Shown: in pieces, positions 31,601 through 37,600 of the stretch | Position numbering within the stretch: position 1 is the first letter of the stretch | Layout of the letters: each line of letters starts with the position of its first letter | Source: Escherichia coli | GTDB lineage: Bacteria; Pseudomonadota; Gammaproteobacteria; Enterobacterales; Enterobacteriaceae | NCBI RefSeq assembly: GCF_009931435.1 | Contig: NZ_CP043414.1 | Strand: one strand, 5' to 3' | DNA: 64,000 nt | Program-made: the position numbers

Positions 31601-34600
31601 TTGGCAAAACGACCGTTTTTCTTGGACGTTTTCAGGACGGCTTTCGTAACGGTAAGAAAAATATTGTGTCGTTTTACGGCAACCTTTTACGGATTTATTT
31701 AAGCTCTCCGGTCTGGTTGTTGGTGAACTATTCATTACGCCATAGCCAGTTAGAAAGCGTAAGCGGTTTTATTGCCTATCGGCAAAAGCAAATGCACCTC
31801 CTGAAAGAGATTATTGCCAAACCACGGCTAACTGGCAGGGAATTTCATGATGTACGAAAAATAATCAGCCAGCAGGTTTCTTATTACGACACCCTAAGAT
31901 CGCTTGATCCTGAAAATAAAGAAGCGTTACAGATTTCCCGCTTCCTCGCCGCCATTAATGGCCTGATGGGGGATAAACACGACGACATGGTGGCGGATGA
32001 TATGGAAAACCGCCAGTCGTATGATGCACCGATGGCGCTGGATAGCGATATTCGTCAGCGCTTAGAACTGCTGATTTCGCGTTTTCCGCTATAACCGGAG
32101 CAATGATGTCATCTCGTTTGATTATTGCGCTGATTATCATGCTCTTAGCCCCGGGTGTGCAGGCGCACAATTTCGTCACTGGTAAAACGGTTACCCCTGT
32201 TTATATCCAGGAAGGCGGCGAGCTGCTTCTGAATAGCGACGACGAAATTCACTACCAAAAGTGGAACAGCACACAGCTGGCGGGAAAAGTCCGCATTATT
32301 CAGTATATCGCCGGGCGTAAGTCGGCGAAGAAAAAGAACTCACTGTTAATTAAAGCGGTTGAAGCGGCAAACTTTCCGCAGGATCGTTTTCAGCCCACCA
32401 CCATTGTGAACACCGATGATGCCATCTTTGGTACTGGCTATTTTGTCGTTGGCAAAATCGAAAAAAATAAACGCCGCTATCCGTGGGCGCAATTCGTTAT
32501 TGACGGCAATGGACAGGGACGCGTTGTCTGGCGGTTGCCGGAGCAGAGTTCAACCATTCTGGTGCTGAATAAAGCCGGGCAAATTCAGTGGGCAAAGGAC
32601 GGCAGCCTGACGCCGGAAGAGGTAGATCATGTCATTGCGCTGGCGCAGAAGCTGATCAATGAATAAAAATTCAAAGGATTGAGGGCGTTAGTGAGATGAA
32701 GCTGGTTGAACACTACATCATGCGTGGTACGCGCCGTCTGGTGCTGATTATCGTCGGTTTTCTGATCTTTATTTTCGCCAGCTACTCCGCACAGCGTTAT
32801 CTGACCGAAGCGGCAAATGGGACATTAGCTCTTGATGTTGTGCTGGATATTGTTTTCTACAAGGTGCTGATTGCACTGGAGATGTTGTTACCTGTTGGAC
32901 TGTATGTGTCAGTTGGCGTGACGCTAGGGCAGATGTATACCGACTCGGAAATTACCGCTATTTCTGCGGCGGGGGGGAGTCCGGGACGCTTGTACAAAGC
33001 CGTTCTTTATCTGGCGATACCGCTAAGTATTTTTGTCACCCTTCTGTCGATGTATGGTCGTCCGTGGGCTTATGCGCAGATTTATCAACTGGAGCAACAG
33101 TCGCAGTCGGAGCTGGATGTTCGCCAGTTGCGGGCAAAGAAATTTAACACTAACGATAACGGACGAATGATCCTTTCGCAGACGGTTGATCAGGATAATA
33201 ATCGCCTGACTGACGTGCTGATTTATACTTCTACTGCCAATCGAACCCGTATTTTCCGCGCCCGTTCGGTTGATGTAGTTGACCCATCACCCGAGAAACC
33301 GACCGTTATGTTGCATAACGGGACCGCCTATCTTCTCGATCATCAGGGGCGTGACGACAACGAACAGATCTACCGTAATCTGCAATTGCATCTGAATCCG
33401 CTGGATCAAAGCCCTAACGTCAAACGCAAAGCAAAATCGGTCACGGAGCTGGCGCGCTCCGCCTTTCCTGCCGATCATGCCGAACTGCAATGGCGACAAA
33501 GCCGTGGCCTGACAGCATTGTTGATGGCGCTGCTGGCCATTTCATTAAGTCGGGTAAAACCGCGGCAAGGGCGATTTTCAACGTTATTGCCACTGACGTT
33601 GCTGTTTGTTGCCATTTTTTATGGCGGCGACGTCTGCCGTACGCTGGTGGCTAACGGCGCGATTCCCCTCATTCCTGGTTTGTGGTTAGTACCCGGACTC
33701 ATGCTAATGGGCCTGCTGATGCTGGTAGCACGCGACTTCTCTTTGCTGCAGAAATTTTCCCGATGAATGTTTTCAGTCGCTATTTAATCCGTCATCTCTT
33801 TCTCGGTTTTGCCGCCGCCGCAGGGCTATTGCTGCCGCTCTTTACCACCTTCAACCTGATTAACGAACTGGATGATGTCAGCCCGGGTGGTTATCGCTGG
33901 ACTCAGGCGGTGCTGGTGGTGCTGATGACCTTACCGCGCACACTGGTCGAACTTTCGCCGTTTATCGCCTTATTGGGAGGGATTGTCGGCCTGGGGCAGT
34001 TATCGAAAAACAGTGAGCTTACCGCCATTCGCAGCACGGGGTTTTCTATCTTCCGTATTGCACTGGTGGCGCTGGTTGCCGGGATATTGTGGACTGTTTC
34101 ATTAGGCACGATAGATGAGTGGGTGGCGTCGCCATTGCAGCAACAGGCGCTGCAAATCAAATCGACTGCCACTGCGTTGGGGGAGGACGATGACATTACC
34201 GGCAATATGCTGTGGGCCAGGCGTGGTAATGAATTTGTGACGGTGAAATCGCTGAACGAGCAGGGCCAGCCGGTGGGCGTGGAGATATTTCATTACCGCG
34301 ACGATCTCTCGCTCGAATCCTACATTTATGCACGCAGTGCCACCATTGAAGACGACAAAACGTGGATCCTGCATGGTGTGAATCATAAAAAATGGCTGAA
34401 TGGCAAAGAAACGCTGGAAACATCTGATAATCTTGCCTGGCAATCGGCCTTCACCAGTATGAATCTTGAAGAGTTATCGATGCCGGGAAATACTTTTTCT
34501 GTCCGTCAACTTAATCATTACATCCATTATTTGCAGGAAACCGGGCAACCCAGCAGCGAATACCGCCTTGCACTGTGGGAAAAACTGGGACAACCCATCT

Positions 34601-37600
34601 TGACCCTGGCGATGATTTTGCTGGCTGTGCCGTTTACCTTTAGTGCCCCGCGTTCGCCTGGGATGGGTAGCCGTCTCGCTGTAGGCGTCATCGTGGGCTT
34701 ACTCACCTGGATCAGCTATCAAATCATGGTCAATCTGGGATTGCTATTTGCGTTGAGCGCACCTGTTACCGCGCTCGGTTTACCGATAGCGTTTATGCTG
34801 GTGGCGTTGAGCCTGGTGTATTGGTATGACAGTCAACATTAAACCCGCCGTGGCGCAGCACCACAGCGGGCTCACATTACTGCTTCAGAGTAGCAAATGC
34901 CTGAATGATGGCATCGATTTGCTCACGAGTGTGGGCAGCGTTTACGCTACAGCGCAGCAGCGTGATGCCTGCAGGCGCGGCAGGTGGCAGGATAAGATTC
35001 ACATAAACGCCCAGCGAAATAAGCTCGCGCCAGATGCGTAAACCTTCCTCTTTCGAACCGATTATTACTGGCACTACCGGGCTAATATGTGAACTTAACT
35101 CGTAACCCAGTTTTTGCAGACCGTCATACAGATGGTTGGCGTTATCCATCAGCTTTTGCCGCAACTCTGGTTGTGAGGCAATGGTTCTTAACGACGAGCG
35201 CACGGTCGCAATGCAGGACGGAGAAGGAGAGGCGGTAAAAATATACGGGCGGCTGCCGTAGCGCAGCACTTCCATCGCTTCCGAACCGACAGCAAAACCG
35301 CCAATCGAGGCCAGACTTTTACTGAAAGTACCAACGATAATATCCACATCATCTTCAACGCCAACGGCTTCAACCAGTCCGCGCCCCGTTGCGCCTAACA
35401 CGCCAAACGAATGTGCTTCATCGACAATCAAATAACCACCAAGACGACGTTTGATATCAACAATTTCTGCCAGCGGCGCAACGTCACCGAGCATACTGTA
35501 GATGCCTTCAACGATGATAATCGCCTCTTTTGCCCGTTCACCGAGGCGAACCATGCGCCGTTCCAGATCTTTAGCATCGTTATGGCGGAAACGAATAATT
35601 TCCGCTCCACCGAGAGAACAGGCGTCATAAATACTGGCGTGGCTGTCGGCATCCAGTAACACTACGGCGTTATGGTCGGCAAGCGCGCTGATGACGCCTA
35701 AATTCGCGGTATAACCGGTTGAAAAAACGATAGCGGAAGGGCGCTTGAAAAACTCGGCAATCTCTTTCTCTAACGCCAGATGCGGCGCATAACTGCCGTT
35801 TGCCATACGAGAACCGGTGGTGCCGGTGCCTTGGGCCGCTAACGCTGCCTGACCTTCGGCGATGGCATCATGATTGAAGGTTAAACCGAGATAATTATTG
35901 GTCCCGGCCAGGATCACGTTTTTATCGCCGATCCGGCCTTCGGTGGCGGAATACACTTCATCAATACAGGTACCAAACGGCGTTAACCCGTTGTCACTAA
36001 ATTGCAGTCGCTCGCCAGCAAGGCGAGCATATTTATCGTATAGCCCCATTATTTATTCTCCAGCCATGGAAGTAGAGTTTCCATTAATTGCGCAGGGGTT
36101 TTGACATCCAGCAGAATATTAATAGGAATGGAAATATCGAATCTGTCTTCCAGCATCATTAAGAGATCCATCACTTTGATCGACTCCAGGCCAAGATCGT
36201 TGACGAGATCGCTGTCGGGCTTAATTTCCACACCGTTTTCGACCAAATCCTGTAAACAGGAAAGGATGTAATCCATTACTATTTCACGATTTACCATAGA
36301 AACGTTAACACACCTTTAAACAAGACAATCAAAATAGCCCGTTGCGTAATGCGTGTTCCAGGCTAATCCCGGGAAACCAATTAATATCTTCAGAAATACG
36401 GTTATTACTTGCCGACCAGTCGGCGTGGGTTAATTCACGGATTTTCGAGCGGGTCAGCATAGGTTCTTTACCTGCCAGGCGACTCAACGCGGTACTGATA
36501 TCCGCAAGGCAGGTGAGTACCGACAGAGGAATACCAACCATTCGAACGGAACCGCAACGGGCGTCGGCGGCAAGTTGCTGTACGCGTTGCCAGTCATAGC
36601 CGCCGGCGACGCCATCGCATAATTCATAGGTTTGCGTCTGTACAGTTTCGGCGCTTAACCACTGCCCCACGGCTTGCGCGAAATCGGTGACGTGCAGGAA
36701 AGAGAGCTGTGTATCTGGCGCACCAAGTCGTGGCAGCAGGCCGCGCAGCATCCAGTCAAACAGCGGTTTTAACTCTTTATCGCCGGGACCATACACGGCT
36801 GTCGGGCGAAAAATGCCCAGCGTAATTTCGTCAGCCATTGCGGTCAGTCGTTGTTCGGCGACGTGTTTGGAATTTGCGTACCAGGAGAGTTCGGGATGGC
36901 GCGCCGCCAGCGAAGAGATAAACAGAAAACGTTGGCAAAAGCCGCTCTCTTTTGCCGCTTGCATCAGGCGCAGGCTGCCGTCAACGTTACATCGGGTAAA
37001 AATCTCTTCTTTGTGTCCGCGCACTTGCCCGGCGCAATGGACCACCGCGCTGGCTCCGGCAACCAGTTCCCTAAGTGAATGTGTATCTTCCAGCGAACCG
37101 CGCACCCAGATGAGATTATCATTGACGTGAGCGCGGGCAGTACGCGTCAATGCGCGAACGTGAAAGCCGCGGGCGAGCAGGTTATCGATAATATATTTAC
37201 CGATAAACCCGGTAGCGCCCGTCACCGCGACAGTTTGATTCATGCCATGGATTCCTGCACATGAAGGCTTGCAGCATAACGTTTTTTCGCTTCCGCACGG
37301 GCAGGCTTGCCGGAGGACGTTCGGGGAATACTGTGGGGCGGCAACAGATCGATAGCCGCTGTTACGCCAAATTCGCTTTGGATCCGTGCTGCCAGTGCGT
37401 GGATAAGCTGCCCACGACGTTCTTCGTCGCTGATCCTACACTGGATCTGCAAAATGATTTTTTCCTGGGCGGTAACAAAAGCAATCGCATCGCCAGAATG
37501 AATTTCCGGTTCCTGTTCCGCAATATATTCAATATCCTGCGGCCAGATATTACGGCCACGAATAATAATCAGATCTTTAATGCGCCCGGTGACATACAGA

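What the first reader, a model, noticed from the sequence alone, without database searches (positions are those of the whole stretch)
32696..34842. Second LptF/LptG-like permease pair with no adjacent ABC ATPase
Two overlapping YjgP/YjgQ-family genes resemble the LPS-extracting LptFG heterodimer but sit inside the lipid locus rather than at the housekeeping lptFG site. No LptB-like ATPase with an ABC signature is encoded nearby; the YghRST P-loop proteins are too short and lack that signature. This suggests either a dedicated extractor for the locus product that borrows LptB, or a non-canonical energizing partner.
Basis: partly seen in the sequence, partly recalled or inferred. Interest (0 to 1): 0.65.

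Follow-up and report, generated by a model that had tools for sequence, protein, structure and literature searches.

The report
Second LptFG pair for sphingolipid export
Most E. coli strains (not K-12) carry a second, intact LptF/LptG-like membrane pair inside a sphingolipid-synthesis gene cluster, most likely to pull that lipid out of the inner membrane using the cell's single LptB ATPase, as a 2026 preprint showed experimentally for the equivalent pair in Caulobacter.

Summary
Window 32696-33766 (356 aa) and 33763-34842 (359 aa, ATGA overlap) encode an LptF-like and an LptG-like permease. They are only 28-29% identical to the E. coli housekeeping LptF/LptG. The window is an E. coli chromosome. 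The pair sits in the yghT-yghO locus, beside spt, acpR, a reductase, aasR and yghO, the bacterial ceramide pathway.

The pair occurs in 4131 of 5426 complete E. coli genomes. The housekeeping lptFG and a single lptB occur in 5425. K-12 lost the pair through an IS5-linked deletion.

Evidence for function:
- dN/dS is 0.04-0.08.
- The coupling-helix glutamate that contacts LptB is invariant.
- Several LPS phosphate and core contacts are replaced, for example LptG K34/K40/K41 become N/D/D.
- In 71 related loci from other gamma- and beta-proteobacteria, F2 lies upstream of G2 in 70 (within 60 nt in 68).
- Spt is nearby in 54 of the 55 loci with full flanks.
- No stand-alone LptB gene sits beside the pair in any of them.

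No ABC ATPase is encoded in the 64 kb window. YghRST are not ABC proteins and are absent from many such loci.

Uchendu, Isom and Klein (bioRxiv, April 2026) showed this for Caulobacter and drew the E. coli UTI89 locus. It is known, and untested in E. coli.

The parts
32696..33766 (+). lptF2: LptF-like permease, 356 aa, with six predicted TM helices and a periplasmic beta-jellyroll
   Evidence: PF03739 E 2e-55. TIGR04407 323 bits against TIGR04408 73 bits. 29% identical to K-12 LptF. AF2 pLDDT 82.5; best Foldseek match is LptF chain 9dok_F, TM 0.81. Coupling-helix E85 aligns to LptF E84 and is invariant in 69 of 69 clade members. dN/dS 0.055-0.083.
33763..34842 (+). lptG2: LptG-like permease, 359 aa, translationally coupled to lptF2 through an ATGA overlap
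   Evidence: PF03739 E 2.5e-69. TIGR04408 307 bits against TIGR04407 86 bits. 28% identical to K-12 LptG. AF2 pLDDT 83.6; best TM-score is to LptG chain 6mit_G, 0.85. E85 aligns to LptG E88 and is invariant in 71 of 71. dN/dS 0.039-0.047. Junction sequence.
32103..32666 (+). YtfJ-family periplasmic protein with a signal peptide, directly upstream of lptF2; function unknown
   Evidence: TIGR01626 209 bits. Present in 30 of 55 full-flank loci; in the per-locus table every YtfJ-like hit lies in an Enterobacterales-type locus. No PDB relative by sequence.
31270..32094 (+). Conserved hypothetical protein, 274 aa, same operon
   Evidence: No Pfam or NCBIfam match. Conserved at 55-94% identity in Enterobacterales loci. 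dN/dS 0.07-0.08.
29915..31270 (+). yghQ: MOP/Wzx-type flippase family protein, candidate flippase for the lipid
   Evidence: Weak MOP flippase matches. PGAP calls it a 'lipopolysaccharide biosynthesis protein'. Pseudomonas-type loci lack it and carry an MsbA/HepA-like ABC half-transporter instead.
29111..29869 (+). yghR: P-loop protein, not ABC-type
   Evidence: Walker A GCDGTGKS and no ABC signature. Sub-threshold dTMP kinase match. No similarity to LptB beyond the P-loop.
28367..29080 (+). yghS: paralogue of yghR (43% identical)
27501..28193 (-). yghT: paralogue of yghR and yghS (34-37% identical), divergently transcribed
34877..36049 (-). spt: serine palmitoyltransferase, convergent with lptG2 across a 34-nt gap
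   Evidence: PGAP annotation. The E. coli BL21 enzyme makes 3-oxo-sphinganine from acyl-AcpR (PMC9386255). Found beside the pair in 54 of 55 full-flank loci.
36049..36297 (-). acpR: specialised acyl carrier protein
   Evidence: PMC9386255; 55 of 55 full-flank loci
36329..37243 (-). NAD-dependent epimerase/dehydratase-family reductase (epi / CerR-type)
   Evidence: PMC9386255; 55 of 55 full-flank loci
37240..38958 (-). aasR: fatty acyl-AMP ligase / acyl-AcpR synthetase (the PGAP start is 9 nt downstream of the ORF's first start codon)
   Evidence: PMC9386255; 50 of 55 full-flank loci
39321..40463 (+). yghO: N-acyltransferase assigned to dihydroceramide synthesis (the 'aca' gene)
   Evidence: PMC9386255 Fig. 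9 legend; no Pfam hit; 43 of 55 full-flank loci

Best explanation
lptF2 and lptG2 encode the two transmembrane halves of a second LptFG-type lipid extractor. It is dedicated to the sphingolipid made by the surrounding genes (yghRST, yghQ, spt, acpR, the reductase, aasR, yghO).

Proposed sequence of events:
1. Ceramide-type lipid is made at the cytoplasmic face by Spt, AcpR, AasR, YghO and the reductase. The E. coli Spt/AcpR/AasR steps are shown in vitro.
2. The head group is added, possibly by YghRST or the 274-aa protein (inferred).
3. The lipid is flipped, probably by the MOP-family YghQ (inferred).
4. The F2-G2 heterodimer extracts it from the outer leaflet of the inner membrane. It is powered by a dimer of the cell's only LptB, docked on the conserved coupling helices. 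This is inferred for E. coli and shown by co-purification in Caulobacter.
5. The beta-jellyroll domains pass the lipid towards the outer membrane. The route beyond that point is unknown: the LptC/A/DE bridge or something else.

The window encodes no ATPase of its own because the pair shares LptB with the housekeeping LptFG.
For: Identity and fold:
- PF03739 and the F- and G-specific NCBIfam models match.
- The AF2 models match solved LptF and LptG chains best, with TM 0.81 and 0.85.
- The pair is distinct from the housekeeping pair: 28-29% identity, a different locus, and 4131 versus 5425 of 5426 genomes.

Linkage to sphingolipid genes:
- In 71 G2-clade loci from Enterobacterales, Pseudomonas, Azotobacter, Stutzerimonas, Nitrococcus and beta-proteobacteria, F2 lies upstream of G2 in 70, within 60 nt in 68.
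- Among the 55 loci with at least 9 kb on both flanks, Spt is present in 54, AcpR in 55, the reductase in 55 and AasR in 50.
- Metagenomic relatives at 37-45% identity lie in spt/PP-binding/epimerase/AMP-binding clusters.
- The genome counts for the spt operon (4163) and for the pair (4131) are nearly the same in E. coli. K-12 lost both in one IS5-linked deletion.

The genes are functional:
- dN/dS is 0.04-0.08.
- 4105 genomes carry at least 80% of the pair.

ATPase coupling:
- The coupling-helix Glu is invariant (F2 E85, G2 E85).
- The coupling-helix window is among the most conserved segments between paralogues, 57% against 28-30% overall.
- The window holds no LptB homologue.
- lptB is found at one place per genome at DNA level.
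- The ABC domains seen in related loci are either MsbA/HepA-like 575-aa half-transporters or lie 5-10 kb away.

Changed substrate site (LPS contacts as listed in PMC6744409):
- LptG K34 becomes N31, K40 becomes D37, K41 becomes D38, R133 becomes L130.
- LptF K322 becomes N, R263 becomes H, Q248 becomes P.
- LptF R33, LptF K317, LptG K62 and LptG R136 stay basic.

Precedent:
- Caulobacter LptF2 and LptG2 co-purify with each other and with the sole LptB.
- They can be deleted only when anionic sphingolipid is not made.
- The E. coli UTI89 locus is drawn as homologous (bioRxiv 10.64898/2026.04.12.717747).
Against: - There is no experiment in E. coli. The papers searched describe no lipidomic detection of a sphingolipid in any E. 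coli strain and no deletion or interaction data for this pair.
- I could not obtain the Caulobacter LptF2/G2 sequences. Common ancestry of the gamma- and alpha-proteobacterial pairs rests on the preprint's figure, not on a tree made here.
- Acidic residues at the K40/K41 positions also occur in many unlabelled LptG-like proteins that resemble G2. These substitutions are therefore not proof of a new specificity.
- The conserved coupling helices show that an ABC NBD docks there. They do not show which NBD.
- The head group of the E. coli lipid and the periplasmic route are unknown.
Confidence: 0.75

Rival explanations
1. The pair is a genuine alternative LPS exporter, as the RefSeq product names say. 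It would handle LPS or a modified LPS or other glycolipid, and its place beside spt would be incidental.
For: Both proteins exceed the curated NCBIfam 'equivalog' cut-offs for LptF and LptG: 323 against 230 bits and 307 against 240 bits. The fold and coupling helices are as in LptFG. Some phosphate-contacting basic residues are kept: LptF R33 and K317, LptG K62 and R136.
Against: Synteny with spt, acpR, the reductase and aasR holds in 54-55 of 55 full-flank loci across gamma- and beta-proteobacteria. The genome counts match those of spt in E. coli. All four inner-core contacts and three LptG lysines are replaced; K34E is lethal in LptG. The pair is absent from 24% of E. coli genomes, while the housekeeping pair is universal.
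Confidence: 0.07
2. F2G2 is energised by an ATPase other than LptB. This could be a different ABC NBD encoded elsewhere in the genome, or the locus's own P-loop proteins YghR, YghS and YghT acting as a non-canonical motor.
For: No ATPase partner is encoded beside the pair. Three paralogous P-loop proteins lie in the same operon region. The LptB partnership has not been tested in E. coli.
Against: YghRST have no ABC signature and no similarity to LptB beyond the P-loop. Their best matches are sub-threshold dTMP kinase models. They are missing from 22 of 55 full-flank loci that keep F2G2. The coupling helices that fit the LptB groove are the best-conserved part of F2 and G2. Caulobacter F2 and G2 pull down LptB.
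Confidence: 0.1
3. The pair is a decaying or silent remnant with no present function.
For: It is dispensable in the laboratory: K-12 lacks it. Deletion variants exist, including a GspC::LptG2 fusion.
Against: dN/dS is 0.04-0.08 against three Escherichia lineages, as low as for spt. Near-full-length copies (at least 80% of the pair) are in 4105 genomes. The pair is conserved at 44-75% identity across orders.
Confidence: 0.03

Closest known systems
Caulobacter crescentus LptF2/LptG2 (CCNA_01214/CCNA_01213), sphingolipid-locus paralogues of LptFG (Uchendu, Isom and Klein, bioRxiv 2026, 10.64898/2026.04.12.717747; named earlier in Olea-Ozuna et al. 2024, PMC11324152)
   Same: It is a second LptF/LptG pair encoded inside the sphingolipid locus. 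No LptB paralogue lies in the locus. The predicted fold is that of LptFG. The authors draw the E. coli UTI89 locus alongside and state that lptF2/lptG2 occur in many alpha- and gamma-proteobacterial sphingolipid loci.
   Different: - E. coli has no LptC2; the preprint says LptC2 is confined to Caulobacter.
- The E. coli operon adds YghQ, a 274-aa unknown protein, a YtfJ-like periplasmic protein and YghRST. It lacks the Caulobacter CpgABC head-group genes; CpgB is a DAGK-type kinase, not a P-loop protein.
- The lipid product in E. coli is unknown.
- LptB binding and conditional essentiality are shown only in Caulobacter.
- I did not compare the sequences directly.
E. coli housekeeping LptB2FG(C) LPS extractor (yjgP/yjgQ next to pepA; PDB 6MHU, 6MIT, 6S8H)
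   Same: Same Pfam family, same F-then-G gene order with overlapping genes, six TM helices plus a beta-jellyroll, and a coupling-helix Glu (E84/E88 aligning to E85/E85).
   Different: - Only 28-29% identity.
- Non-essential and absent from 24% of genomes.
- A different locus.
- LptG K34, K40, K41 and R133, and LptF K322, R263 and Q248, are replaced.
- G2 has net charge -7 against +8 for LptG.
- F2 has Ala at the position of LptF R212.
Sphingomonas wittichii LptFG homologues in the sphingolipid region (the sole LptFG in an LPS-free organism, per the preprint)
   Same: An LptFG-type pair linked to spt and presumed to export glycosphingolipid.
   Different: There it is the only pair and presumably essential. 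In E. coli it coexists with a full LPS pathway. Not examined here.
Pseudomonas, Azotobacter and beta-proteobacterial sphingolipid loci with LptF2G2 (found here)
   Same: F2-G2 are 44-60% identical to the E. coli pair and lie next to spt, acpR, the reductase, aasR and a yghO-like gene.
   Different: YghQ, the 274-aa protein and the YtfJ-like protein are absent. These loci carry an MsbA/HepA-like ABC half-transporter, a CDP-alcohol phosphatidyltransferase and a DAGK-type lipid kinase. This implies a different head group and a different flippase.

Membership tests
LptF/LptG permease family (Pfam PF03739; NCBIfam TIGR04407/TIGR04408) | Full-length match to the family profile, with F-type and G-type members distinguishable | tested here: met
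   PF03739 E 2e-55 and 2.5e-69. F2: TIGR04407 323 bits against TIGR04408 73. G2: TIGR04408 307 bits against TIGR04407 86.
LptF/LptG permease family (Pfam PF03739; NCBIfam TIGR04407/TIGR04408) | Six TM helices with a periplasmic beta-jellyroll between TM3 and TM4 | tested here: met
   AF2 models have pLDDT 82.5 and 83.6, with strands at roughly 150-232 and 150-227. The best Foldseek hits are LptF chain 9dok_F (TM 0.81) and, by TM-score, LptG chain 6mit_G (0.85).
LptF/LptG permease family (Pfam PF03739; NCBIfam TIGR04407/TIGR04408) | Cytoplasmic coupling helix with the conserved Glu (LptF E84, LptG E88) that docks into LptB | tested here: met
   F2 E85 and G2 E85 align to E84 and E88. They are invariant in 69 of 69 and 71 of 71 clade members. 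The coupling-helix window is 57% identical against 28-30% overall.
Housekeeping LPS extractor LptFG (the functional 'equivalog' that PGAP names) | Conserved basic and polar residues that bind the lipid A phosphates and inner core (LptG K34, K40, K41, K62, R133, R136; LptF R33, K317, K322, R263, Q248; PMC6744409) | tested here: not met
   Seven of the 11 are replaced: N31, D37, D38 and L130 in G2; N320, H261 and P240 in F2. Four stay basic: R59 and K133 in G2; R34 and R315 in F2.
Housekeeping LPS extractor LptFG (the functional 'equivalog' that PGAP names) | Universal presence in the species and the pepA-lptF-lptG context | tested here: not met
   The pair is in 4131 of 5426 genomes and lies between the ytfJ-like gene and spt. 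The pepA-linked pair is in 5425 of 5426.
Sphingolipid-locus LptF2/LptG2 (Uchendu et al. 2026) | A second LptFG pair, additional to the housekeeping one, encoded within the spt/acpR/reductase/aasR/N-acyltransferase cluster | tested here: met
   Gene map of the window and of L001. The synteny holds in 54-55 of 55 full-flank related loci.
Sphingolipid-locus LptF2/LptG2 (Uchendu et al. 2026) | No LptB paralogue in the locus or the genome | tested here: met
   Met for the locus only. No ABC signature and no LptB homologue in the 64 kb window. No stand-alone LptB-like gene adjacent to the pair in any of 71 related loci. Genome-wide, lptB gives one place per genome at DNA level, but that search cannot see paralogues below about 65-70% DNA identity.
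Sphingolipid-locus LptF2/LptG2 (Uchendu et al. 2026) | Physical complex of F2 with G2 and with LptB | not testable with these tools
   Shown by pull-down in Caulobacter only. Here it is inferred from translational coupling (the ATGA overlap) and the conserved coupling helices.
Sphingolipid-locus LptF2/LptG2 (Uchendu et al. 2026) | The genes can be deleted only when the anionic sphingolipid is not made | not testable with these tools
   This is a genetic result from Caulobacter. The only E. coli observation is that natural deletions, such as the K-12 one, remove the pair and spt together.
Sphingolipid-locus LptF2/LptG2 (Uchendu et al. 2026) | Sequence relatedness to CCNA_01213/CCNA_01214 closer than to housekeeping LptFG (a shared clade) | not tested
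   The Caulobacter sequences could not be retrieved with the available tools. The genome scan patterns reached only gamma- and beta-proteobacteria. The NJ tree of unlabelled representatives was star-like. Homology is asserted in the preprint's Fig. 2B.

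The most novel reading that the evidence does not exclude
In E. coli and other gamma-proteobacteria the sphingolipid extractor may work without LptC. Three observations point that way:
- F2 carries Ala, Ser, Gly, Thr or Val, never Arg, at the position of LptF R212. R212G, R212S and R212C are exactly the suppressors that let LptB2FG bypass LptC and hand LPS directly to LptA (PMC9972910).
- No LptC2 exists in these loci.
- A conserved YtfJ-family periplasmic protein is encoded 29 nt upstream of F2 in the Enterobacterales-type loci.

F2G2 would then either dock directly on LptA or use the YtfJ-like protein as a dedicated acceptor. 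Because it draws on the same LptB pool as LptFG, it would couple LPS export and sphingolipid export.
Probability: 0.2. Interest if true: 0.6.

Novelty: already known. Interest (0 to 1): 0.3.

Why it matters
E. coli is the organism in which LPS transport was worked out, yet that work used K-12, which has deleted this locus. About three quarters of complete E. coli genomes, and many other Enterobacterales and pseudomonads, encode a second Lpt-type extractor tied to sphingolipid synthesis.

If it shares LptB, three things follow:
- LptB-directed and LptFG-directed antibiotics, and any model of LPS flux, would have to account for a competing client complex in natural isolates.
- RefSeq's duplicate 'lptF/lptG' names in these genomes would be functionally misleading.
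- E. coli B strains such as BL21, which carry the locus, would offer a tractable system for testing bacterial sphingolipid export.

The concept itself is already published for Caulobacter.

Tried and rejected
- **Housekeeping genes.** I checked whether these are the housekeeping lptFG. They are not: different locus, 28-29% identity, both pairs present in most genomes.
- **Hidden ATPase.** I looked for one with a Walker A plus ABC-signature scan and with tblastn using LptB, LptC and LptA. Nothing was found; the only P-loop hit is GspE.
- **YghRST as the motor.** Rejected: no ABC signature, dTMP-kinase-like at best, absent from 22 of 55 full-flank loci. No PDB relative by sequence.
- **YghRST as homologues of the Caulobacter ceramide kinase CpgB.** Rejected: CpgB is a DAGK/GGDG-type kinase.
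- **Placing the pair in a tree with Caulobacter and Sphingomonas.** The NJ tree of the top 150 unlabelled representatives is star-like outside the gamma/beta G2 clade. Cluster look-ups returned almost only unnamed metagenomic proteins.
- **Promoter and terminator scan of the locus.** Counts were at shuffle background and uninformative.
- **Pfam on the 274-aa protein and on YghO, and a PDB search with the YtfJ-like protein.** No hits.
- **Apparent high divergence from an 'E. coli' reference locus (L009).** The whole region is about 90% identical, so L009 is a divergent Escherichia lineage and the divergence is not a peculiarity of the locus.
- **Literature.** Searches for a sphingolipid detected in E. 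coli, or for any study of yghQRST in this context, found nothing.

Full report
**What is there.** The window is an E. coli chromosome segment running hyb - yghU - gss - pitB - yghT - yghS - yghR - yghQ - ... - yghO - glc - sslE - gsp. At 32696-33766 and 33763-34842 on the + strand lie two genes of 356 and 359 codons. They overlap by ATGA. A longer mechanical ORF for the second gene starts at GTG 33682. It is not supported, because every homologue starts at the ATG. Both proteins match Pfam PF03739 over their full length. The first fits the LptF model of NCBIfam and the second fits the LptG model. AlphaFold2 models (pLDDT 82.5 and 83.6) show the LptFG architecture: TM helices, a beta-jellyroll after TM3, then further TM helices. 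They match solved LptF and LptG chains respectively, with TM 0.81 and 0.85. I call the two proteins F2 and G2.

**They are a second pair.** The K-12 housekeeping lptF-lptG sit next to pepA and occur in 5425 of 5426 complete E. coli genomes. F2 and G2 are only 29% and 28% identical to them and occur in 4131 of 5426 genomes. PGAP nevertheless names both pairs lptF/lptG, because F2 and G2 exceed the curated equivalog cut-offs.

**No ATPase.** No ORF of 100 aa or more in the 64 kb combines a Walker A motif with an ABC signature. tblastn with LptB, LptC and LptA finds nothing except the P-loop of GspE at E = 0.019. YghR, YghS and YghT are paralogues of one another, 34-43% identical. Their Walker A motif is G[CS]DG[ST]GKS. 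They have no ABC signature, no similarity to LptB beyond the P-loop, and only sub-threshold dTMP-kinase matches. The conclusion that they are not ABC proteins is right.

**Context.** The pair ends a tightly packed + strand operon: yghS, yghR, yghQ (MOP flippase family), a 274-aa protein with no family match, a YtfJ-family periplasmic protein, lptF2 and lptG2. The gaps run from a 4-nt overlap to about 50 nt. This operon converges on aasR - reductase - acpR - spt on the - strand, with yghO beyond.

Padilla-Gomez et al. 2022 (PMC9386255) showed that the E. coli BL21 Spt, AcpR and AasR make 3-oxo-sphinganine. They assigned the reductase and yghO to dihydroceramide synthesis. The 'lipid locus' is therefore a bacterial sphingolipid locus.

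**Linkage beyond E. coli.** A scan of one genome per species found 71 loci with a G2 relative of 44-98% identity. They come from Enterobacterales, Pseudomonas, Stutzerimonas, Azotobacter, Nitrococcus and beta-proteobacteria.
- F2 lies upstream of G2 in 70 of the 71 loci, ending within 60 nt of the G2 start in 68.
- Among the 55 loci with at least 9 kb on both flanks, Spt is present in 54, AcpR in 55, the reductase in 55, AasR in 50 and YghO in 43.
- Metagenomic relatives at 37-45% identity lie in the same kind of cluster.

Within E. coli, the spt operon (4163 genomes) and the pair (4131) have nearly the same count. 4043 genomes carry at least 80% of the whole 14 kb locus. K-12 derivatives retain only yghT-yghQ | IS5 | yghO.

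**Functional state.** dN/dS is 0.055-0.083 for F2 and 0.039-0.047 for G2 against three other Escherichia lineages. That is comparable to spt.

**Energy coupling.** The Glu of each coupling helix (LptF E84, LptG E88) aligns to F2 E85 and G2 E85. It is invariant across the clade. The coupling-helix window is among the best-conserved segments between paralogues, 57% against 28-30% overall.

No related locus has a stand-alone LptB-like gene next to the pair. Where ABC domains appear, they are of two kinds:
- the C-terminal half of a 575-aa MsbA/HepA-like exporter next to spt, in Pseudomonas-type loci that lack YghQ, so it is a likely alternative flippase;
- genes 5-10 kb away.

YghRST are missing from 22 of the 55 full-flank loci. 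lptB is found at one place per genome and is at least 99% identical in 5395 genomes.

**Substrate site.** Tang et al. 2019 (PMC6744409) list the LPS contacts. In G2:
- LptG K34, K40, K41 and R133 become N31, D37, D38 and L130;
- K62 and R136 stay basic (R59, K133).

In F2:
- R33 and K317 stay basic (R34, R315);
- the inner-core contacts K322, R263 and Q248 become N, H and P.

G2 has net charge -7, against +8 for LptG. This fits a smaller lipid that has no core sugars but may carry one anionic group. I mark that as inference. Acidic residues at the K40/K41 positions also occur in many unlabelled LptG-like proteins that resemble G2.

**Comparison with what is known.** Olea-Ozuna et al. 2024 (PMC11324152) named LptC2, LptF2 and LptG2 in the Caulobacter sphingolipid region. 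Uchendu, Isom and Klein (bioRxiv, 13 April 2026, 10.64898/2026.04.12.717747) reported the following:
- LptF2 and LptG2 co-purify with each other and with the only LptB.
- The genes can be deleted only when anionic sphingolipid is not made.
- No lptB duplicate exists.
- They draw the E. coli UTI89 locus beside those of Caulobacter and Sphingomonas.
- They state that lptF2/lptG2 occur in many alpha- and gamma-proteobacterial sphingolipid loci, while lptC2 appears restricted to Caulobacter.

For E. coli it remains an inference from homology, synteny and conserved coupling helices. I found no paper reporting a sphingolipid in E. coli or any experiment on this pair.

**What I could not do.** I could not obtain the Caulobacter sequences, so I did not test whether the gamma- and alpha-proteobacterial pairs form one clade.

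**A lead worth noting.** F2 has Ala211 at the position of LptF R212. The alignment there is anchored by an invariant Gly and an aromatic residue. Across the clade the residue is A, S, G, T or V, never R. R212G, R212S and R212C are the E. coli suppressors that make LptC dispensable and allow direct LptF-LptA contact (PMC9972910). The gamma-proteobacterial loci have no LptC2, and the Enterobacterales-type loci encode a conserved YtfJ-like periplasmic protein just upstream of F2. Together these leave open an LptC-independent route.

**Verdict.** It is already in the literature as a concept, with this very locus illustrated. It is an ordinary, well-conserved member of the sphingolipid-locus LptF2G2 group, and it is untested in E. 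coli.

Noticed in passing
window 32696-34842; L001 16001-18147: RefSeq/PGAP gives F2 and G2 the product names 'LPS export ABC transporter permease LptF/LptG', because they pass the equivalog cut-offs. About 76% of complete E. coli genomes therefore carry two annotated lptF genes and two annotated lptG genes, although the second pair is only 28-29% identical and lies in a sphingolipid locus.
   Followed up: yes
window 27400-41400 compared with K-12-type records (H58-H60): K-12 derivatives cover only 40% of the 14 kb locus and read yghQ | IS5 | yghO. One IS5-linked deletion removed the 274-aa gene, the ytfJ-like gene, lptF2, lptG2, spt, acpR, the reductase and aasR. Other strains show larger deletions linked to IS1 or IS5 (H61-H63).
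   Followed up: partly
protein P0023: A 456-aa E. coli protein combines a GspC domain (PF11356) with 72% of G2 at 98% identity. This looks like a deletion fusing gspC to lptG2, which would remove spt, yghO, the glc operon and sslE.
   Followed up: no
L066 574-2301 (-) and equivalent positions in L045-L078; L005, L006, L081: Pseudomonas, Azotobacter and metagenomic versions of the locus lack YghQ, the 274-aa protein and the YtfJ-like protein. They carry instead a 575-aa MsbA/HepA-like ABC half-transporter next to spt, a CDP-alcohol phosphatidyltransferase, a DAGK-type lipid kinase and nucleotidyltransferases. That is a different head-group and flippase module around the same F2G2-spt core.
   Followed up: partly
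window 33326-33328 (F2 Ala211): At the position of LptF R212 the F2 clade has A, S, G, T or V and never R. R212G, R212S and R212C are the known LptC-bypass suppressors of E. coli LptF.
   Followed up: partly
window 31270-32094 and 32103-32666: Two conserved genes of unknown role lie between yghQ and lptF2. One is a 274-aa protein with no Pfam or NCBIfam hit. The other is a signal-peptide-bearing YtfJ-family protein. Both are under purifying selection (dN/dS 0.07-0.14), and their tblastn hits are confined to the Enterobacterales-type loci.
   Followed up: partly
window 27501-29869: YghT, YghS and YghR are three paralogous P-loop proteins, 34-43% identical to one another, with only sub-threshold dTMP-kinase similarity. 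RefSeq labels two of them 'dTMP kinase'. Weaker relatives (32-39%) occur in some Pseudomonas sphingolipid loci, which suggests a head-group or nucleotide-activation role.
   Followed up: partly
window 33763-34842: G2 has net charge -7, whereas housekeeping LptG has +8. F2 is +10 against +4 for LptF.
   Followed up: no
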